A stretch of 64,000 nucleotides of DNA from Escherichia coli (GTDB lineage: Bacteria > Pseudomonadota > Gammaproteobacteria > Enterobacterales > Enterobacteriaceae): the NCBI RefSeq assembly GCF_048403405.1, contig NZ_CP183129.1. The stretch is one strand, 5' to 3'. The position numbers were made by a program, and so were the translations under genes. Of the stretch, positions 16,780 through 62,079 are shown piece after piece; position 1 is the first letter of the stretch, and each line of letters opens with the position of its first letter. Under the pieces are notes generated by a model that was not told where the DNA came from, searched no databases, and saw only the letters and a program-made list of their open reading frames with translations.

Positions 16780-17379
16780 TCAGAAACGGTATCCGATACC
16801 AACAATAAATGCATCCGTTCGCCAGTCGCCACTACCGGAACCTTCATAAGCAAGGTCAATGGTTACGGATTCGGTCGGGTTAAACTGCACGCCAGCCCCC
16901 CACGCCAGAGACGTGTTGCTGTGGCGACCGTCATCACTTCCGGTCAGCACATCGTGCGTTTTCCCCTTGTTGTCAGTTACGCGGAGATAATCCCCGGAGA
17001 AAGTCGACACACGGCTGTAAGCCACACCCACCATCGCATACGCGCTGAACCATTCATTCACGCGTACAGACGGCCCCGCCATCACGCTGAACCAGCGGTT
17101 ACGCACGGAATCTTCATGCCAGCGGGTATCGCTGTAGTGCGTTTTTTGCTCATCCTCAGCATTGGCATAACTGAAGGACGTAATCAGCCCCAGCGCGTCC
17201 GTAAACTCATAACGGTATTTCACGTTAATCCCGTTCAGATTATCGCTGCCGGGAGCGTTCGTACGGGCATGAAGATACCCCGCGCTCAGTGTGGACTGAT
17301 GTTCAGACGCCCATGCAGGCGCACCGGATACGGACAGACAGATGGCTGCGGACAAAATGGCTGCACAAACTTTACGCAT
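16780..17379 (-). CDS. lom: Lom/Ail-family outer membrane beta-barrel protein
   Basis: 199-aa ORF with signal peptide and Ail/Lom-like beta-strand pattern ending ...GIGYRF; lambda lom position after J. Confidence 0.85.
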   Translation of the reverse strand: MRKVCAAILSAAICLSVSGAPAWASEHQSTLSAGYLHARTNAPGSDNLNGINVKYRYEFTDALGLITSFSYANAEDEQKTHYSDTRWHEDSVRNRWFSVMAGPSVRVNEWFSAYAMVGVAYSRVSTFSGDYLRVTDNKGKTHDVLTGSDDGRHSNTSLAWGAGVQFNPTESVTIDLAYEGSGSGDWRTDAFIVGIGYRF

Positions 17380-41921: not shown

Positions 41922-42257
41922 ATGAAGTGGATTGTGATTGATACAGTTATCCAGCCATCATGCGGAATATCTTTTTCAGTCATATGGAGTAAAATAAAAT
42001 TAATAATCTGGTATCAATCGGATGCTTTCTTACCTCCTGAAAGTATATTTACACTGACTCACACAGGTATCATGCTCAATAACAAAGTGCTACCTGTAAC
42101 CATTTACAACGTAGTACCATTCAATAAAACATTCTGGAATTTAATCAAAAACAGCCAGGAATGCCCTACAAATACAGATAACGTATTGAATGAATGCTTT
42201 AATAACCGTTGCACTCTGCAAATATGTCCTTATGGGCTAAAACAACAAAGTCCATAA
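41922..42257 (+). CDS. hypothetical Cys-containing protein (111 aa) in AT-rich island, opposite strand to late operon
   Basis: AAGGAA RBS 6 nt before ATG; very AT-rich upstream region; no recognisable family. Confidence 0.4.
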
Positions 42258-42270
42258 GGAGTTTACTCAC

Positions 42271-42313
42271 ATCTGACAAAATCAATATAAACAGCCCCTC
42301 CGGAGAGGGGCTG
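42271..42313 (-). terminator. intrinsic terminator (minus strand) upstream of lysis cassette
   Basis: Hairpin CAGCCCCTC-CGGA-GAGGGGCTG followed on minus strand by TTTATATTGATTTT. Confidence 0.5.
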
Positions 42314-42610
42314 GAGAGTGGCGCTATGTGCCATTGCATGGTGCCGGGTGCCTCCCGGTGAATTCAGTACCAGCACCTGAATCCGCGATTATCCCATATA
42401 CCTACTCGCTGATTGCCCCTCCGCACAGGGGGATTCACCATGCCAGTTTCTTTTAACAAACTCCCCGCAAACCAGACAACAGTCAACCGCCTGAATTGTG
42501 AAGTATTTAAAAATTTCTCCCGCTAACTGATACCCGGCTAACAGTCTGGCGTTTTCTTTTTCAGCAACGGGAAAGCAACAACCACCACACCCACCAGCCG
42601 CCCATTTACC

Positions 42611-45492: not shown

Positions 45493-45744
45493 TTATTCTT
45501 CTGAAAAAGCAGAAAAGCCAGCTTTTATTCCGATCTCTTTCAATGCCTGTAATGAAGTGACAAACTCACCGTCGTGCAAGATAAATCCGTCCGTCACTCG
45601 GGCATCCACAAAATTAATTAACGCAGCCCCATTTTTTTGCAAACACACAATGCGGTAATGGCTAACAATATTTCCATTTTCAACGCACACAGCATAGAGG
45701 CCATCTTCACAAAAAATTTTACGCAGTTCTTCGATGTTCATCAT
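45493..45744 (-). CDS. hypothetical protein (83 aa), possibly Rem-like by position
   Basis: 83-aa ORF between ydfU-like and hok, the position/size of Qin rem (sequence identity not verifiable from memory). Confidence 0.4.
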   Translation of the reverse strand: MMNIEELRKIFCEDGLYAVCVENGNIVSHYRIVCLQKNGAALINFVDARVTDGFILHDGEFVTSLQALKEIGIKAGFSAFSEE

Positions 45745-45960
45745 CAGAATCCTTCCGGATAATTAGCTCTCCCCTTTAAGGGACCATCCCTCTTATCCCT
45801 GCGCGCTACTTAAGTATTTTTGATTCTATTCCGGCACCGTCCAGAACTTCAAATGCGTTGAAAATAAAAACAAAAACCCGCCGAAGCGGGTTAAGTGCGG
45901 GTGCGTTGAGGATGCCTGCCACATCAGAGGTGGCGAGGGATTTCTCCCTCGCCTGGTCTC

Positions 45961-46116
45961 TTACTCCTCAGGTTCGTAAGCTGTGAAGACAGCGACCTCC
46001 GTCTGGCCGGTTCGGATTCGTACCTCGCAGAGGTCTTTCCTCGTTACCAGTGCCGTCACTATGACGGTTAAACAGATGACGATCAGGGCGATTAACATCG
46101 CCTTTTGCTGCTTCAT
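45961..46116 (-). CDS. hok: Hok/Gef-family type I toxin (51 aa)
   Basis: Translation MKQQKAMLIALIVICLTVIVTALVTRKDLCEVRIRTGQTEVAVFTAYEPEE is a canonical Hok-family peptide; not in the ORF track (below size cut-off). Confidence 0.85.
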   Translation of the reverse strand: MKQQKAMLIALIVICLTVIVTALVTRKDLCEVRIRTGQTEVAVFTAYEPEE

Positions 46117-46129
46117 AGCCTGCTTCTCC

Positions 46130-46230
46130 TTGACCTTTCGGTCCGTAAGAGGCTAATCTCTATGTGTCGCATAGATATGGCCTCAGATTAATGTTAAGCG
46201 TCTTGCAGGACGCGTAATGTTAACTGGGGC
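46130..46230 (+). ncRNA. sok: expected Sok-type antisense RNA / mok leader region of hok locus (location approximate)
   Basis: By analogy with hok/sok loci the antisense RNA overlaps the hok mRNA leader; exact ends not determined. Confidence 0.3.
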
Positions 46231-46374
46231 TTTTCTCTATCTGCCTTTTGGTGTTCATGCCTGAGACAGATAGCCTCAAGCACCCGCAGTTATTCTACTT
46301 AACTAAGATTTCCCCGCAAACCGTTTTTGTCCGGCACAGTAAATATCCAACTAAACCAATGGCGTTCGCTGTAT

Positions 46375-51490: not shown

Positions 51491-52319
51491 GGTTTACCCC
51501 CTTGCTGACTGGTTTAACCTGCGCCCTGACGTGATTTACGTGACGGGCGAATTTCTGCTCCCACTGAATCTGCGTAAACACTTTCCCCTCCGCTGCCCAG
51601 TAGTCCCGGAAGGCGGCAAGTTCAGCAGGTGTAAATTCTGTCTCCGGCAAAGCCATCCCCCACAACGCAGCCCGTCGTCGAAAATCCCGTGACGGATACC
51701 AGCTATCGGTCATCGGAAATTTTCCGATGGGTTCGCTCAGGCCATCCAGGAATACAAGGGGTGCTGCCTGTAACGACAAAACTTCCTGCTCACTGGTCGG
51801 AGCACTCTCGCGTGCGTTATGTGTGGGGTTTAGATCTTTGGGTTCCTTTGGGTTCCGTGATCCGTTTTTGGGTGTCTTTGATGGAAAATTTGGGTGTCTT
51901 TGGTTATTTTCCATGCAGCTAAGAGTTCCGTTTTTGGGTCTGTTTTGTGCTGAAACATAACCATTTTCGGTACTGTTTTTATTAACAGCACCAATTTTAC
52001 CCACCTTTAAAGACTCCCGTTTTTGGGTGTATTCAGGCTCGGCAACACTTTCTTCTACACCGATAAGTCGGTACACCACAATTTGCTTTGTTCTGCCTTT
52101 TCTCTCACCGGTATCAACAATTAACCCAATCTCCATCAGGTGTCGTAAGCTGTCCTGCACAGTCTTTTTGTTCAGTTCCGTTACTTCTGCCAGTGCAGAT
52201 ACAGACGGGTATGCACACAAATCGGCACCGCACATATCAGCAAGCCAGGTCAATACAGACTTACTGGATGAACTGCCGGTTTTCACCTTTTTAGCCCATC
52301 GTAGTGCATCGATACTCAT
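51279..52319 (-). CDS. O: replication initiator O-like (N-terminal HTH initiator domain, DnaT-like C-terminus)
   Basis: Start set at MSIDALRWAKK...; iteron repeats embedded in mid-gene. Confidence 0.65.
   Translation of the reverse strand: MSIDALRWAKKVKTGSSSSKSVLTWLADMCGADLCAYPSVSALAEVTELNKKTVQDSLRHLMEIGLIVDTGERKGRTKQIVVYRLIGVEESVAEPEYTQKRESLKVGKIGAVNKNSTENGYVSAQNRPKNGTLSCMENNQRHPNFPSKTPKNGSRNPKEPKDLNPTHNARESAPTSEQEVLSLQAAPLVFLDGLSEPIGKFPMTDSWYPSRDFRRRAALWGMALPETEFTPAELAAFRDYWAAEGKVFTQIQWEQKFARHVNHVRAQVKPVSKGVNHAAAPGGTASRAVQEIRAAREQWERENGFISDGNGLEAVGTHGGGLFEPLDPEERGRTFEALDCTDWRDD
51840..52035. repeat. replication origin iterons inside O gene
   Basis: At least three copies of TCCGTTTTTGGGT(G/C)T plus TTTGGGTTCC repeats and adjacent AT-rich stretch. 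Confidence 0.5.
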
Positions 52320-52842
52320 ACAAACCCCTGGCAGACATTTGTTTATCTGCAAAGTAATATTGATATTGCTGACGATACGCATGCTTGAAAGCAATAGCTT
52401 TTTCTATAAGCTCGTCAGTCTCACGTTCCACAACAGCTGGATCCGCAAAAAGCAGCCCGGACTCCACCACATCGCCATATTCTTTGTTTAATCCGGCGAT
52501 CATGTACGTAATGCTTTTTCCATCACTGATCTCACGATACAACCTGAAATCACTAATTCGGATAGCCTCCATAATTGCCGGAATCAGCGCCGTGAATTTT
52601 TTCCGCTTATCCCTGGTGTCGATAGCTTTCCAGCGTTCGAATATCTTCACCCGGTTAACGCCCAGCGCCCGTTGATCAACCTCGCCATCATTAAACGTGA
52701 CGCGTTGAACATCGATGTTCGGGCGTTCTTTCAGAGCCCAGAATGCTTCCGTGATTAATATCGTCGCTTGCTCCTGTGTCATTCCTGGTCGACATACCCA
52801 GGCATCCAGAGCCTCACAAACCTGTTCAGGGGTGATTTTCAT
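52291..52842 (-). CDS. hypothetical protein (183 aa) in cII position
   Basis: ORF translationally coupled to cro-like gene, upstream of O. Confidence 0.4.
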   Translation of the reverse strand: MKITPEQVCEALDAWVCRPGMTQEQATILITEAFWALKERPNIDVQRVTFNDGEVDQRALGVNRVKIFERWKAIDTRDKRKKFTALIPAIMEAIRISDFRLYREISDGKSITYMIAGLNKEYGDVVESGLLFADPAVVERETDELIEKAIAFKHAYRQQYQYYFADKQMSARGLYEYRCTTMG

Positions 52843-53053
52843 TGTTCAACCGCCCCGCCCGCTTTGCCTTACGATATTCGTCATAAACTTTGGGGTCGTA
52901 CTGAAGTTCCCCGCCGGATGCCTCCTGTAGACGCATCGCGCGACCTTCAGGAACCAGTTTCCCCCATGCAGCAACGCTTGCCAGCCTAACTCCTGCGGCA
53001 TTGGCAAGCTTTGTTTTGCTGCCAAAAAACGCTATAGCATCAATTTTCAACAT
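52826..53053 (-). CDS. dicC: Cro-like regulator (DicC-like)
   Basis: 75-aa ORF divergent from repressor; sequence (FGSKTKLAxAAG.RLAS ... LVPEGRAMRLQEASGGELQYDPKVYDEY) matches recalled DicC. Confidence 0.7.
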   Translation of the reverse strand: MLKIDAIAFFGSKTKLANAAGVRLASVAAWGKLVPEGRAMRLQEASGGELQYDPKVYDEYRKAKRAGRLNNENHP

Positions 53054-53129
53054 ATCGAACTCCTTAGATTTTCCTAAGGAAACTAGATCGTAGAGAAACC
53101 TAAGTCAAGAAAAATTAGAATTACCTAAT
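53054..53129. promoter_or_regulatory. divergent promoter/operator region between dicC-like and dicA-like genes
   Basis: Palindrome TTCCTAAGGAA plus further CCTAAG half-sites. Confidence 0.5.
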
Positions 53130-53537
53130 ATGAAAAACGAAACCTTCGGTGCTCGCCTCTTATACAGGCGTAAAAAATTAAAACTGTCTCAGGCCGCATT
53201 AGGTAAGCTGGTCAAAGTGGCTCACGTAACAATTTCTCAATGGGAAAGAGATGAAACACAGCCAGCGGGGAAGAGATTATTCGCACTGAGCCAGGCGCTT
53301 CAGTGCTCGCCGACTTGGCTTCTTTTTGGAGATGAAGATAAGCAACCAGGCGAACCGATCCCAGATAATCAGCCAGTTAATCTGACAGAAGATCAAAAAG
53401 AGTTGCTTCAACTGTTCGACGCACTGCCTGAGTCAGAGCAAAAGGCTCTGTTGTCAGAGATGCGTGCTCGAGTTGAGAATTTCAACAAACTTTTTGAAGA
53501 ACTACTCAAAGCTCGCAAAAGAAGCGCAAATAAATAA
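53130..53537 (+). CDS. dicA: prophage repressor (DicA-like, HTH-XRE, no S24 peptidase domain)
   Basis: 135-aa ORF; HTH (LSQAALGKLVKVAHVTISQWE); C-terminal SPTWLLFGDEDKQP ... LPESEQ ... EMRARVENFNKLFEELLKAR matches recalled DicA. Confidence 0.8.
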   Translation: MKNETFGARLLYRRKKLKLSQAALGKLVKVAHVTISQWERDETQPAGKRLFALSQALQCSPTWLLFGDEDKQPGEPIPDNQPVNLTEDQKELLQLFDALPESEQKALLSEMRARVENFNKLFEELLKARKRSANK

Positions 53538-53589
53538 CCCTCCCTTTTTTTTCGCCACTCTCTGTAATAAAAAGCACAAACTTTCAAAT

Positions 53590-53660
53590 GCTTGTGTTTT
53601 TTACATCAAAAAACTTAGGTTTTTCTACACAAAAAGCTTGACCATAATTCTTAGGTTATT
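53590..53660. promoter_or_regulatory. second operator/promoter region (CTTAGG repeats) downstream of repressor gene
   Basis: ACTTAGGTTTTTC ... CTTAGGTTATTC repeats with embedded TTGACC; likely promoter of the dicB-type operon. Confidence 0.45.
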
Positions 53661-53743
53661 CTAAATTCTACTCATCAAGACACCGCACGGTGTTCTCAGC
53701 AAACAGTTCCGCTACCCTGGCGTTAAGGGGAAATGAGGTCAGC

Positions 53744-53907: not shown

Positions 53908-54282
53908 ATGGAATTTAAAGATTTACCAGTACCATTCCAGGAAATGGCATCGAATGTGGTTCGCTCTCAACTGGCGACTCTTGACCTGAGTACCGTAGAA
54001 AAAGAAACCATCGATACTATATCCGGTAACGTGCGTCGTGCCTTTATCGGTCTGTACGAAGAGAAGCAGCTCTCTGATAACCAGGATTTACATGAAAAAT
54101 ACTTCCTGGAATTAATGGACATCATTAATAAAGGATTTGGCTTGTTAATGAAAAAGAAAGGGATTCGAATAGCTCCCCTTGAAAATCATTTTACAGCGAG
54201 CAGTATTAATTCCTGTGATTTAAAGCATCACACATCCGATGGGAAAGTTGAATCAAACAACAAAATATCAATTAATCATTAA
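53908..54282 (+). CDS. hypothetical protein (124 aa), AT-rich
   Basis: ORF with GAGG RBS before MEFKDL; no family recognised. Confidence 0.45.
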   Translation: MEFKDLPVPFQEMASNVVRSQLATLDLSTVEKETIDTISGNVRRAFIGLYEEKQLSDNQDLHEKYFLELMDIINKGFGLLMKKKGIRIAPLENHFTASSINSCDLKHHTSDGKVESNNKISINH

Positions 54283-54584
54283 TTTATTCACAGGTGAGGT
54301 AGAGTGCGTGCGCCGGACACGGATAAGAATCCGGCACTGACAGTTTACTAAAAAGGATATATCCCTGAAAAGTCAGGGCATAACACGAAAGCGCCCGGCG
54401 AAGTTAGTCTCTCTGTATAGGTCGTCGTTAAATTTAATTCGATCGTGCGCTTCCGGTTGTGGCAATCCGCGAAATGGCGCGGCGGTAAGTATGGCTGGGG
54501 TTTCCTCCATTGCTCCAGAAAATGCACCGGGTTGTCAGGTTGACCATACGCTTAAGTGACAGCCCCGCCACAATACCCATGTGT

Positions 54585-54637
54585 AGTCTTTGGTGGCATC
54601 AGTTCTACTCCGTGACTGCTCTGCCACCCTTTTTAAA
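54585..54637 (+). ncRNA. dicF: DicF-like small RNA (3' stem-loop/terminator region conserved)
   Basis: TTTGGTGGCATCAGTTCTACTCCGTGACTGCTCTGCCACCCTTTTT closely matches recalled DicF 3' portion, with compensatory stem changes GGCGG/CCGCC to GGTGG/CCACC. Confidence 0.55.
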
Positions 54638-54812
54638 GTGAATTTTGTGATGCGGTGAATGCGGCTAAGCGCACGCGGAACAGTTAAAACCAAAAACAGT
54701 GTTATGGGTGGATTCTCTGTATCCGGCGTTAATTGTTAACTGGTTAACGTCACCTGGAGGCACCAGGCACCGCATCAACAAAGTTCACTTCGGTGATGAA
54801 AGGTAAGAGAAA

Positions 54813-55667
54813 ATGTTGAATGTAGCTATTGAAAACCAGAACGGGTGGAATTATAGTGCACCTGCACCTCATAAAACGGGTGCCGGGCGTGGAAACCCGG
54901 AATTCAATCAAGCGCATAACCGCGCTCAGGCGGTTTTTTTATGCGTCAAGCACAGCCACATTCAGATTATGGTGGGGCGTGCAGGGCAGCTGCAAGGCTG
55001 GCCGGATTCTTGGTTGACCGGTATTTCCACCCCTGTACGCCTCACCACCCTTATGGTCGTGGAAAACCTTGGTGGTGAGTTATTAATACTCAACCAAGAG
55101 GCTGCCATTATGGCTACTATCCCTACCCTTTCTCACCCTGACGTAACCATCGAAAATGGTCGCGCTGTCACTACGTCTGTTGCGGTTGCAGAGTTCTTCC
55201 GCAAAATGCACAAGGACGTTCTGCGCAAAATTGAAACGCTAGAATGCTCTGAAGATTTTAACGAGCGCAATTTTACGCCCGTTACCTACACCGACGCCAA
55301 AGGCGAAAAACGCCCCATGTACCAAATCACCAAAAACGGCTTCGTTTTCCTGGTGATGGGGTTCACAGGTAAAAAAGCCGCAACTTTCAAAGAAGCCTAC
55401 ATCGCTGAGTTCGATCGCATGGAGGAAGAACTGCGCCAGAATAACGCCCCGTCTCCCGACAAAATGATTCACGGGGACGGACGCACCCTGGTTATCCGTC
55501 TCGACGAACACGGCAATATCAAATTCACTGAAACCGTTCCTGACGGCGCAATGGTCTGCACCCTGGATACCTTCCGGTTTTATCTGGAGAAACAAGGATG
55601 GACTCTTGTAAACCGGAGCGCAATTAAAAATATGACTGTGGAGCAATTGCTAAAAATTCATTGTTGA
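54813..55667 (+). CDS. Rha-family phage regulatory protein (possible antirepressor); start uncertain
   Basis: C-terminal 185 aa carry Rha-like motifs (AVAEFF.K.H..VLR.I ... MGFTGKKA..FKEAYI.EFDRMEEEL); alternative start at 55110. Confidence 0.65.
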   Translation: MLNVAIENQNGWNYSAPAPHKTGAGRGNPEFNQAHNRAQAVFLCVKHSHIQIMVGRAGQLQGWPDSWLTGISTPVRLTTLMVVENLGGELLILNQEAAIMATIPTLSHPDVTIENGRAVTTSVAVAEFFRKMHKDVLRKIETLECSEDFNERNFTPVTYTDAKGEKRPMYQITKNGFVFLVMGFTGKKAATFKEAYIAEFDRMEEELRQNNAPSPDKMIHGDGRTLVIRLDEHGNIKFTETVPDGAMVCTLDTFRFYLEKQGWTLVNRSAIKNMTVEQLLKIHC

Positions 55668-55677
55668 GGACGCGATA

Positions 55678-55866
55678 ATGGAAACGTCACTACCAAACGT
55701 TAATACGTCTGACGGGTGCTTTAATATTGGTGTTCTGCTCAGTAACAGGGATTTCACCGAGGATGCAATCAATATGAGAAAATATGAACCCTACCTGCTG
55801 AATGACAATTCCATACTCTCCAGAATTGCCCTTCTTAAACTCGGTATTTTCGGAGAGTGGCGATGA
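55678..55866 (+). CDS. dicB: DicB-like cell division inhibitor (62 aa)
   Basis: LPNVNTSDGCFNIGV..SN..FTEDAINMRK matches recalled DicB; follows DicF-like RNA. Confidence 0.7.
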   Translation: METSLPNVNTSDGCFNIGVLLSNRDFTEDAINMRKYEPYLLNDNSILSRIALLKLGIFGEWR

Positions 55867-60162: not shown

Positions 60163-60176
60163 TGAATAAGAAGGTG
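60163..60176. other. attR core (TGAATAAGAAGGTG) with native potB 3' end
   Basis: Identical to 11709-11722; 60152-60184 encodes ...LMNKKVELE-stop overlapping potC ATG. Confidence 0.6.
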
Positions 60177-62022: not shown

Positions 62023-62079
62023 TTCAGCAAGCGGGCGGTGGTATTACCGCCCGTTTTTTATTTAGCAAGGATGTGGCTA

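What the first reader, a model, noticed from the sequence alone, without database searches (positions are those of the whole stretch)
52826..53660. Qin-like dicA/dicC immunity switch in a lambda-like prophage
The immunity region is not lambda cI/cro but a 135-aa DicA-like repressor divergent from a 75-aa DicC-like Cro, with palindromic operators (TTCCTAAGGAA and CCTAAG/CTTAGG half-sites) on both sides of the repressor gene. The second operator set sits at the start of a dicB-type operon. The phage is thus a mosaic of lambda morphogenesis with Qin-type control and division-inhibition genes, intact rather than defective as in K-12.
Basis: partly seen in the sequence, partly recalled or inferred. 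Interest (0 to 1): 0.45.

Follow-up and report, generated by a model that had tools for sequence, protein, structure and literature searches.

The report
DicA/DicC prophage immunity switch
This is the repressor/anti-repressor "lysogeny switch" of a lambda-like prophage, of the well-known DicA/DicC (Qin) type; the same gene variant has already been studied in E. coli O157:H7, so it is correctly read but ordinary.

Summary
Window 52826-53053 (-) encodes a 75-aa DicC/Cro-like protein (84% identical to K-12 DicC). Window 53130-53537 (+) encodes a 135-aa DicA-like repressor (63% identical to K-12 DicA). Both pass NCBI's curated DicC and DicA family cut-offs.

One motif, TAGANNNNCCTAA, occurs exactly five times in the 64 kb, against 0.08 expected by chance. 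Three copies lie between dicC and dicA. Two lie on the other strand at the promoter of a ydfA-dicF-dicB operon.

The likely operators are 18-bp P22-type sites such as CCTTAG-N6-CTAAGG, sitting where K-12's tested operator Oc sits.

The repressor combines a P22 c2-like DNA-binding domain (62% identity) with a short helical tail and no self-cleaving domain. Induction is therefore probably by an antirepressor; a Rem homologue is present.

The prophage is 48.5 kb, between potB and potC, with att repeats. All 56 annotated prophage genes checked are intact, and the late genes are lambda-like.

It is not novel. This variant occurs in 750 of 5,426 E. coli genomes and is annotated dicA/dicC in GenBank. 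It matches the primers of a 2019 O157:H7 DicA/DicC study. Functional phages with DicA/DicC immunity are already known.

The parts
52826..53053 (-). dicC-like gene (75 aa), Cro analogue
   Evidence: 84% identical to K-12 DicC. NCBIfam DicC 167.4 bits against cut-off 130. Pfam P22_Cro 50 bits against 30.2. P22 Cro structure 1rzs, E 6e-7.
53062..53079 (.). O1, CCTTAGATTTTCCTAAGG, an 18-bp inverted repeat. It is the positional equivalent of K-12 Oc, covers the inferred dicC transcription start and overlaps the dicC Shine-Dalgarno sequence.
   Evidence: Motif match. Aligns with K-12 Oc, TTGTTAGTCATAACTAACAA, whose DicA binding was shown genetically (PMC3441716). Invariant across four E. coli copies of this allele, with a single A-to-G change (column 31) in the Klebsiella phage.
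53088..53105 (.). O2, TCGTAGAGAAACCTAAGT, overlapping the -35 (TTGACT, complement of 53103-53108) and the spacer of the inferred dicC promoter
   Evidence: Motif match. The -35 is conserved in all six alleles compared. The promoter is assigned by homology to the 5'RACE-mapped K-12 dicC promoter (PMC3441716). The window's -10, TAGTTT (53085-53080), is a weak match, so this is inferred.
53113..53130 (.). O3, AATTAGAATTACCTAATA, overlapping a -10-like TAGAAT (53116-53121) located 8 nt before the dicA ATG
   Evidence: Motif match. A -10-like hexamer lies 6-9 nt before the start codon with no Shine-Dalgarno sequence in all alleles. A leaderless dicA mRNA is my inference.
53130..53537 (+). dicA-like repressor gene (135 aa), CI analogue
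   Evidence: 63% identical to K-12 DicA. NCBIfam DicA 241.6 bits against 101. Residues 2-69 match the P22 c2 N-terminal domain at E 1e-21. The AF2 model superposes on 3jxb at 0.5 A with 62% identity. No S24 peptidase domain.
53568..53603 (+). Hairpin followed by a U-tract, likely the dicA terminator, insulating the dicB-operon promoter
   Evidence: RNA fold -11.2 kcal/mol, z -3.85, 0 of 200 shuffles as good. A terminator-like site was also called on the - strand.
53613..53630 (.). OB1 operator (reverse orientation), 8 bp upstream of the dicB-operon -35
   Evidence: Motif match on the - strand. 94% complementary to O2 (I2). The CTTAGG core is invariant while flanks vary among allele copies.
53638..53667 (+). 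dicB-operon promoter (PL analogue), TTGACC-18-TAAATT
   Evidence: Promoter scan. The -35 TTGACC is conserved with K-12 dicBp.
53649..53666 (.). OB2 operator (reverse orientation), covering the spacer and -10 of the dicB-operon promoter
   Evidence: Motif match on the - strand. 88% complementary to O3 (I3). Same position as the K-12 TGTTAGTCATGGCTAATC site.
52291..52842 (-). ydaT-like gene (183 aa), overlapping the dicC stop by 17 nt; likely CII analogue
   Evidence: Pfam YdaT_toxin 25.2 bits against 21. Annotated cII in phage PhiR42_1. YdaT is described as a transcription factor of the Rac immunity region in PMC11879457.
53744..53896 (+). ydfA (DUF1391), first gene of the DicA-repressed operon
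   Evidence: Pfam DUF1391, E 8e-28. The 5'UTR plus gene is 92.6% identical to K-12.
54578..54629 (+). DicF small RNA
   Evidence: Rfam RF00039, 61.1 bits against gathering score 48.
54788..55667 (+). Accessory cassette absent from K-12: isrK/c4-target RNA (54864-54940), C4 antisense RNA (54965-55052) and a Rha-family putative antirepressor (ATG 55110)
   Evidence: Rfam isrK 69.2 bits and C4 78 bits. Pfam/TIGR Rha. Insertion junctions relative to K-12.
55678..55866 (+). dicB (62 aa), cell-division inhibitor
   Evidence: 64% identical to K-12 DicB. NCBIfam DicB 103.4 bits against 100.
45493..45744 (-). rem, homologue of the DicA antirepressor of Qin
   Evidence: 93% identical to K-12 Rem. Rem derepresses dicBp 165-fold in K-12 (PMC10448788).
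11709..60176 (.). Whole prophage between potB and potC, bounded by the 14-bp direct repeat TGAATAAGAAGGTG (11709-11722 and 60163-60176)
   Evidence: att repeat. All 56 annotated prophage CDS checked are intact, plus the flanking potB and potC. The late region is lambda-like.

Best explanation
This is the immunity (lysis-lysogeny) region of a lambdoid prophage, of the DicA/DicC (Qin) type.

The repressor DicA has a P22-c2-like helix-turn-helix domain, a flexible linker and a short two-helix tail. It probably binds as a dimer to 18-bp pseudo-palindromic operators with half-site CCTTAG(A/G), arranged 7+4+7 as in P22.

Three sites (O1-O3) lie between dicC and dicA. O1 and O2 cover the start site, -35 and spacer of the leftward dicC promoter (the PR analogue). 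They would shut off dicC, the ydaT-like gene, the replication genes and Q. O3 overlaps the weak dicA promoter, whose mRNA is probably leaderless.

Two sites (OB1, OB2) bracket and cover the promoter of the ydfA-dicF-dicB-exo-xis-int operon (the PL analogue).

DicC (Cro-like) would bind the same sites and turn dicA off, which gives a bistable switch.

DicA has no LexA-like cleavage domain, so derepression is expected from an antirepressor rather than from RecA-mediated cleavage. The candidates are Rem and perhaps the C4-gated Rha protein. DicA instability or stochastic switching are alternatives.

Shown here: homology, site positions and the conservation pattern. Inferred: binding, promoter assignments, the leaderless mRNA and the induction route.
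For: - Protein homology and curated family cut-offs are met.
- The N-terminal domain is 62% identical to P22 c2 and superposes at 0.5 A on the operator complex 3jxb. DicC matches P22 Cro.
- There are five exact motif copies, all at the two regulatory regions, against 0.08 expected.
- O1 sits where K-12 Oc sits. Oc binds DicA, represses dicC and activates dicA (PMC3441716).
- Six alleles keep the 3+2 site layout and the TTGACT/TTGACC -35 boxes. Each has its own half-site: window and Klebsiella phage CCTTAG, K-12 and H8 TGTTAG, mEp460 TTGAG.
- Within this allele the half-site cores are invariant while flanks vary.
- Divergence from K-12 is confined to about 52955-53672. That stretch holds the DicC helix-turn-helix, the operators, dicA and the dicB-operon operators. 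Flanks are 90-93% identical, like a classical imm cassette.
- The same allele in O157:H7 was tested: DicA overexpression lowers dicB, and DicC overexpression lowers dicA and raises dicB (PMC6915034). The primers of that study match the window.
- There is no S24 domain, and Rem is 93% identical to K-12 Rem (PMC10448788).
Against: - No binding data exist for these operators.
- In K-12 only Oc bound DicA in vivo; Om and Oa did not (PMC3441716). O2 and O3 may therefore be weak or serve DicC only.
- The window's dicC -10 (TAGTTT) matches the consensus in only 3 of 6 positions and was not called by the promoter scan.
- No RNAP site was found for K-12 dicA by Reg-Seq (PMC7567609), so the dicA promoter and leaderless mRNA remain conjecture.
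- No LexA box lies upstream of rem or rha. Both genes lie downstream of DicA-repressed promoters, so the primary inducing signal is unidentified.
Confidence: 0.85

Rival explanations
1. The switch is real, but the prophage is functionally dead or domesticated. The module then only governs host-affecting genes (dicB, dicF, ydfD-like), as in K-12 Qin, and is not a working lysis-lysogeny decision.
For: K-12 Qin and all PPompW prophages carrying this allele (97.7% identity) are described as defective, with no packaged DNA (PMC8112680). The annotation of the near-identical strain 7/2 lists two small pseudogenes in the lysis region. No inducing signal could be identified.
Against: Here int, xis, O/P-like replication genes, Q, holin, lysozyme, Rz, terminase, head and tail genes are all open, and both att cores are present. 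The late region is 93-94% identical to isolated ECOR phages. Functional phages with DicA/DicC immunity exist: mEp460_ev081 (PMC10448788) and PhiR42_1, whose DicA and DicC are identical to K-12's.
Confidence: 0.25
2. The functional operator is the reader's 11-bp palindrome TTCCTAAGGAA, and the isolated CCTAAG hexamers act as independent half-sites.
For: The palindrome is present at 53071-53081.
Against: It occurs once. It is not palindromic in the Klebsiella (TTCCTAAGGAT), H8 or K-12 alleles. All five sites instead share a 13-nt gapped motif with P22-like 7+4+7 geometry. That geometry suits a c2-type dimer and matches the tested 20-bp Oc of K-12 (PMC3441716).
Confidence: 0.05
3. The repeated motif is not a repressor site. 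It is instead a shared promoter or architectural element (for example an IHF or UP-like sequence), or a remnant of a duplication.
For: The sites are AT-rich and overlap promoter elements. O3 is identical in alleles whose O1 differs, which could reflect shared ancestry rather than function.
Against: Half-sites change with the allele while the layout is kept; mEp460 has TTGAG/CTCAA at all positions. The cores are invariant while flanks drift. Single-base changes in the homologous K-12 Oc abolish DicA binding (PMC3441716).
Confidence: 0.05
4. The repressor is a lambda-cI or P22-c2 type SOS-cleavable repressor.
For: The N-terminal domain is 62% identical to P22 c2. PPompW prophages with this allele excise after mitomycin C treatment (PMC8112680).
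Against: The protein is 135 aa with only helix-turn-helix Pfam hits and no Peptidase_S24. The AF2 model has a two-helix tail in place of the beta-rich cleavage domain. K-12 dicBp is not induced by mitomycin C and its spontaneous switching is recA-independent (PMC10448788). Excision in O145 could be driven in trans by co-resident phages.
Confidence: 0.02

Closest known systems
dicA-dicC-dicB region of cryptic prophage Qin, E. coli K-12
   Same: Same gene order: ydfX/ydaT-like, dicC, divergent dicA, then ydfA, dicF, dicB, ydfD. Protein lengths match (135 and 75/76 aa). Three sites lie in the spacer and two at dicBp. The -35 boxes are the same. Rem is present (93% identity). Flanks are 90-93% identical.
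   Different: DicA is only 63% identical, with the divergence in the DNA-binding half. The operator half-site is CCTTAG rather than TGTTAG, so immunity specificity may differ (untested). O1 lies 7 bp closer to the dicC start. ydfB and ydfC are replaced by a 124-aa ORF. There is an extra isrK-C4-Rha cassette before dicB. The host prophage is complete rather than a remnant.
dicA/dicC of E. coli O157:H7 (Pan et al. 2019, PMC6915034) and of PPompW prophages (LC5678xx records)
   Same: It is the same allele. The published primers match the window at 22/22, 23/23 and 22/22. PPompW copies are 97.7% identical and annotated dicA/dicC. Genetic tests showed DicA lowers dicB and DicC lowers dicA.
   Different: Those prophages are degraded and sit at ompW, whereas this one is complete and sits at potB/potC. 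Most O157 copies lack the isrK-C4-Rha cassette. The operators of this allele were never mapped.
Phage P22 immC (c2 repressor, Cro, 18-bp operators)
   Same: The N-terminal domain is 62% identical and superposes at 0.5 A. DicC is in the P22_Cro family. The operators are 18 bp with a TTA core in each half-site. The genes are divergent, with three sites between them.
   Different: There is no S24 C-terminal domain, so no RecA-stimulated self-cleavage. A roughly 50-aa helical tail takes its place.
Gifsy-type short repressors (GfoR, GfhR) controlled by antirepressors (Lemire et al. 2011, as cited in PMC10448788)
   Same: A short repressor without a cleavage site, with inactivation by a small antirepressor protein encoded in the same or another prophage.
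   Different: The Gifsy antirepressors are LexA-controlled. No LexA box was found upstream of rem or rha here.
Functional temperate phages with DicA/DicC immunity: mEp460_ev081 and PhiR42_1
   Same: These are complete lambdoid genomes with dicC, dicA and a ydfA-to-dicB operon.
   Different: The immunity alleles differ. mEp460 has half-site TTGAG and 53% DicA identity. PhiR42_1 is identical to K-12.

Membership tests
DicA/DicC (Qin-type) immunity module | Repressor belongs to the DicA family by the curated model | tested here: met
   NCBIfam NF007257, 241.6 bits against cut-off 101, full length 1-135. 63% identity to K-12 DicA.
DicA/DicC (Qin-type) immunity module | Divergent Cro-like partner belongs to the DicC family | tested here: met
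   NCBIfam NF007282, 167.4 bits against 130. 84% identity. 76-bp divergent spacer.
DicA/DicC (Qin-type) immunity module | Inverted-repeat operator at the dicC promoter (Oc) plus further sites in the spacer and at dicBp | tested here: met
   By sequence only: O1-O3 and OB1-OB2, 5 exact motif copies against 0.08 expected, positionally homologous to the K-12 sites.
DicA/DicC (Qin-type) immunity module | DicA binds the operators, represses dicC and dicB, and activates dicA; DicC represses dicA | not testable with these tools
   Reported genetically for the same allele in O157:H7 (PMC6915034; primer match) and for K-12 (PMC3441716, PMC10448788). There is no binding assay for these sites.
DicA/DicC (Qin-type) immunity module | Downstream operon ydfA ... 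dicF ... dicB ... ydfD | tested here: met
   DUF1391. Rfam DicF 61.1 bits against 48. NCBIfam DicB 103.4 bits against 100. DUF1482.
DicA/DicC (Qin-type) immunity module | Cognate antirepressor Rem encoded in the prophage | tested here: met
   83-aa ORF at 45493-45744, 93% identical to K-12 Rem. Its activity on this DicA was not tested.
Lambda cI / LexA-like cleavable repressors | C-terminal S24 peptidase domain with a Ser-Lys dyad and a cleavage site | tested here: not met
   Only helix-turn-helix families hit in Pfam. 135 aa. AF2 shows a two-helix C-terminus.
P22 c2 / Cro immC | c2-type N-terminal DNA-binding domain and P22-type Cro | tested here: met
   PDB 1adr/2r1j/3jxb at E 1e-21. Foldseek TM 0.97, 62% identity. 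Pfam P22_Cro and PDB 1rzs.
P22 c2 / Cro immC | Full-length c2 architecture (216 aa with cleavable C-terminal domain) | tested here: not met
   The protein is 135 aa and has no S24 domain.
Gifsy-type antirepressor-controlled repressors | Short non-cleavable repressor | tested here: met
   DicA is grouped with GfoR/GftR in the literature (PMC10448788).
Gifsy-type antirepressor-controlled repressors | Antirepressor gene under LexA control | tested here: not met
   No CTGT-N8-ACAG box lies upstream of rem or the Rha gene. The only good LexA-like box (51971-51990) lies inside the O-like gene.
Complete (potentially inducible) lambdoid prophage | att repeats plus open int, xis, replication, Q, lysis, terminase, head and tail genes | tested here: met
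   14-bp direct repeat. All 56 annotated prophage CDS checked are intact. Lambda-like late region.
Complete (potentially inducible) lambdoid prophage | Excision, replication and release of infectious particles | not testable with these tools
   This needs induction and plaque assays. Related PPompW prophages excise on mitomycin C but do not package (PMC8112680).

The most novel reading that the evidence does not exclude
The prophage may be a fully functional lambda-like phage whose lysogeny is held by a non-cleavable DicA of a distinct operator specificity (CCTTAG against Qin's TGTTAG). Both of its candidate antirepressors (Rem, and a C4/isrK-RNA-gated Rha protein) lie behind DicA-repressed promoters. 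Induction would then have to be triggered from outside the phage. Possible triggers are antirepressors of co-resident prophages, physical destabilisation of DicA (temperature or urea), or DicC-driven stochastic flipping. That would make it a natural model for SOS-independent, cross-prophage induction networks.
Probability: 0.12. Interest if true: 0.45.

Novelty: already known. Interest (0 to 1): 0.15.

Why it matters
The value is mainly for annotation. RefSeq labels these genes only as "helix-turn-helix domain-containing protein" and "Cro/CI family transcriptional regulator", although they pass the DicA and DicC family cut-offs.

The comparison also gives sequence-level positions for the dicB-promoter operators. 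Reg-Seq authors list those binding locations as unknown even in K-12 (PMC7567609). It further suggests which operator bases change together with the repressor's DNA-binding half.

If the prophage is inducible, it would be a convenient intact system for studying how non-cleavable DicA-type repressors are switched off. None of this changes current understanding of the family.

Tried and rejected
- LexA boxes as the SOS link. Three CTGT-N8-ACAG matches occur in the window, none upstream of rem or rha. The best (51971-51990) is inside the O-like gene. I found no support for LexA control.
Rejected because it is unique and not conserved.
- A structured nut- or put-like element in the conserved ydfA 5'UTR. 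The fold is no better than shuffles, z +0.46. Left open.
- The repeat finder across the two prophage ends found nothing, because the tool treats regions separately. A k-mer script found the 14-bp att core.
- The promoter scan did not call the dicC promoter. It is assigned only by homology to K-12.
- A PDB sequence search for the YdaT-like protein gave only weak hits, E about 0.2.
- A Foldseek search of the full DicA model returned SinR/SinI and arbitrium repressor-antirepressor complexes, but with large rmsd. I use these only as an analogy for a helical tail targeted by a small antirepressor.
- One literature search (mEp460 OR DicA) was uninformative.
Full report
**What is at the coordinates**

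The window holds a 75-aa ORF at 52826-53053 on the minus strand and a 135-aa ORF at 53130-53537 on the plus strand. They are divergent across 76 bp.

- The 135-aa protein is 63% identical to K-12 DicA over its full length. It scores 241.6 bits against NCBI's curated 'transcriptional repressor DicA' model, whose cut-off is 101.
- The 75-aa protein is 84% identical to K-12 DicC. It scores 167.4 bits against 130 for the DicC model. It also hits Pfam P22_Cro and the solved P22 Cro structure.
- The gene downstream of dicC (52291-52842, overlapping its stop by 17 nt as ydfX does in K-12) is YdaT-like. It is annotated cII in a related phage.

**The operators**

Repeat analysis and inspection gave a gapped motif, TAGANNNNCCTAA.

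- It occurs exactly five times in the 64-kb window. Three copies are on the plus strand in the dicC-dicA spacer (53065, 53091, 53116). Two are on the minus strand downstream of dicA (53615, 53651).
- Shuffles give 0.08 matches on average. Allowing one mismatch adds a single unrelated site.
- I derived the motif from these sites, so the test is partly circular. The clustering is still not chance.

Extended to 18 bp, the sites are:

| Site | Coordinates | Sequence or orientation |
|---|---|---|
| O1 | 53062-53079 | CCTTAGATTTTCCTAAGG |
| O2 | 53088-53105 | plus strand |
| O3 | 53113-53130 | plus strand |
| OB1 | 53613-53630 | minus strand |
| OB2 | 53649-53666 | minus strand |

It is not palindromic in other alleles, so I do not regard it as the functional unit.

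**Relation to promoters**

*dicC promoter.* O1 aligns with K-12 Oc, TTGTTAGTCATAACTAACAA. Oc is the only DicA site with experimental support. Single-base changes in it abolish binding. It abuts the -10 of the 5'RACE-mapped dicC promoter, and DicA bound there represses dicC and activates dicA (PMC3441716).

By homology the window's dicC promoter is TTGACT (complement of 53103-53108), then 17 nt, then TAGTTT (53085-53080). O2 covers the -35 and spacer. O1 covers the start site and the dicC Shine-Dalgarno sequence. The -10 is weak and the promoter scan did not call it, so this assignment is inferred.

*dicB-operon promoter.* Downstream of dicA there is a hairpin with a U-tract at 53568-53603 (z -3.85), probably the dicA terminator. 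After it comes a promoter, TTGACC-18-TAAATT, at 53638-53667. OB2 lies across its spacer and -10, and OB1 ends 8 bp upstream of its -35. The -35 box and the layout are shared with K-12 dicBp.

*dicA promoter.* O3 overlaps a -10-like TAGAAT located 8 nt before the dicA ATG, with no ribosome-binding site. All six alleles show a -10-like hexamer 6-9 nt before the start codon. I infer a weak, activator-dependent promoter that gives a leaderless mRNA, as at lambda PRM. Two published observations fit this: the K-12 dicA promoter is 'not obvious' (PMC3441716), and Reg-Seq saw no RNAP site there (PMC7567609).

**Comparative support**

I extracted the same region from K-12 Qin, E. coli H8, a 'Rac' phage from strain 442/2, Klebsiella phage ST405-OXA48phi1.2, phage mEp460_ev081 and phage PhiR42_1.

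All keep three sites in the spacer. Where downstream sequence is available they keep two at the dicB-type promoter, along with the -35 boxes. The half-site differs by allele:

| Allele | Half-site |
|---|---|
| Window and Klebsiella phage | CCTTAG (their DNA-binding halves are nearly the same) |
| K-12, H8, 442/2 | TGTTAG |
| mEp460 (divergent recognition helix, SGSSISLWES) | TTGAG/CTCAA |

Within the window's allele, O1 and O2 are invariant across the four E. coli copies. The Klebsiella phage differs by one base in each, while the dicC leader drifts. The CTTAGG cores of OB1 and OB2 are invariant while adjacent bases vary.

Against K-12, divergence is confined to about 52955-53672. That stretch holds the DicC helix-turn-helix, the spacer, dicA and the dicB-promoter operators. 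It is flanked by 90-93% identical DNA, which is the classical picture of an exchangeable immunity cassette. Whether CCTTAG and TGTTAG operators are truly heteroimmune is not shown, because both share the TTAG core.

**How the repressor is built**

- Residues 2-69 match the P22 c2 N-terminal domain at E 1e-21.
- An AlphaFold model (mean pLDDT 83, built from a shallow six-sequence alignment) shows a five-helix domain at 6-66, a disordered Pro-rich linker, and two helices at 87-97 and 101-134.
- The domain superposes on the P22 c2-operator complexes at 0.5 A with 62% identity.
- P22 operators are 18 bp with a 7+4+7 layout, which I state from my own knowledge. The entries 2r1j and 3jxb are c2-operator complexes. 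The sites here have the same geometry.
- No S24 peptidase domain is present, so RecA-stimulated self-cleavage is excluded.
- The C-terminal half is the most conserved part across alleles.

The full-length Foldseek hits include SinR-SinI and arbitrium repressor-antirepressor complexes. I use these only as an analogy for a helical oligomerisation tail that a small antirepressor can attack.

**Induction**

In K-12, Rem derepresses dicBp 165-fold. Spontaneous switching there needs DicC but not RecA or Rem. Mitomycin C does not induce it, whereas urea and heat do (PMC10448788).

The window encodes a Rem that is 93% identical (45493-45744).

It also carries, about 20 bp upstream of dicB, an 865-bp cassette absent from K-12. 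The cassette holds isrK/c4-target and C4 antisense RNAs and a Rha-family gene. This is a P1 immI-like antirepressor module.

Both candidate antirepressors lie downstream of DicA-repressed promoters. I found no LexA box in front of either. The primary trigger therefore remains unknown.

PPompW prophages with this allele do excise after mitomycin C treatment (PMC8112680). They do so in strains full of other inducible phages.

**The prophage**

- The window is 99.6-99.9% identical to E. coli strain 7/2.
- The element spans about 11709-60176 between potB and potC. It is bounded by the 14-bp direct repeat TGAATAAGAAGGTG.
- All 56 annotated prophage CDS checked are uninterrupted in the window, as are the flanking potB and potC. 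They include int, xis, a RecE-like exonuclease, O/P-like replication genes, Q, holin, lysozyme, Rz, terminase, portal, capsid, tail and tail fibre.
- The late region is about 87% identical to lambda and phage 21, and 93-94% identical to isolated ECOR phages.

'Lambda-like morphogenesis' and 'apparently intact' are therefore supported by gene content only.

**Novelty**

- The allele is present at 80% coverage or more in 750 of 5,426 complete E. coli genomes.
- It is annotated dicA/dicC in eleven GenBank PPompW and Stx2a phage records at 97.6-97.7% identity.
- The primers that Pan et al. (2019) used to clone, delete and quantify 'dicA' and 'dicC' of O157:H7 match the window genes at 22/22, 23/23, 22/22 and 21/21. 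This very allele has therefore already been shown to behave as a DicA/DicC pair.
- Functional temperate phages with DicA/DicC immunity are known: mEp460_ev081 (PMC10448788) and PhiR42_1, whose DicA and DicC are identical to K-12's.

**Verdict**

What this work adds is small: a sequence-level operator map, including the dicB-promoter sites, and the note that this copy sits in an apparently complete phage with an extra RNA-gated antirepressor cassette. Interest is low.

Noticed in passing
window 54788-55667: An 865-bp cassette absent from K-12 sits about 20 bp upstream of dicB, inside the DicA-repressed operon. It holds isrK/c4-a1b1-like RNA (54864-54940), C4 antisense RNA (54965-55052) and a Rha-family putative antirepressor (likely start 55110). 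RefSeq annotates a longer ORF (54813-55667) whose 'Ash' N-terminus overlaps the RNAs. The dicF-cassette-dicB arrangement occurs in 263 of 5,426 E. coli genomes. It resembles the P1 immI c4/ant module.
   Followed up: partly
window 51971-51990: A good LexA-box-like sequence, TACTGTTTTTATTAACAGCA (perfect CTGT-N8-ACAG core, 15 of 20 to consensus), lies inside the O-like (DnaT-domain) replication gene. It could be chance or an internal regulatory or origin element.
   Followed up: no
window 53673-53743: The 5' leader of ydfA is 92.6% identical to K-12 although the adjacent operators are diverged. It contains a small hairpin, GACACC-GCAC-GGUGUU. The fold is no better than shuffles. No N-like antiterminator gene is visible at the head of this PL-like operon, so how early transcription reaches int and xis is unclear.
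   Followed up: partly
window 45493-46285: rem (the DicA antirepressor homologue) lies next to a hokD/sok type I toxin-antitoxin locus (Rfam sok at 46114-46285). The arrangement and roughly 91% identity match K-12 Qin.
   Followed up: partly
window 11709-11722 and 60163-60176: A 14-bp direct repeat, TGAATAAGAAGGTG, marks the prophage ends. The phage is inserted at the potB/potC junction of the potABCD operon, and the repeat restores the potB 3' end.
   Followed up: partly
window 41922-42257; 12295-12963; 16780-17379: Cargo genes in the prophage: an IraM-like anti-adaptor homologue between Q and the lysis genes, a SAM-dependent methyltransferase next to attL, and a Lom/Ail-family outer-membrane protein.
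   Followed up: no
window 13061-13259 (-), 42283-42472 (-), 54641-54782 (+): Further Rfam matches: IS009 sRNA (225 bits), STnc100 (132 bits), and a sub-threshold partial STnc100-like match (38 bits) just downstream of DicF.
   Followed up: no
window about 62054-62059: Compared with the near-identical strain 7/2 genome, the window lacks the IS200C copy that strain 7/2 carries between potD and ymfA. The window therefore comes from a close relative, not from that strain.
   Followed up: no
window 53908-54282: A 124-aa ORF with no Pfam or NCBIfam hit replaces ydfB and ydfC of K-12 between ydfA and dicF.
   Followed up: no
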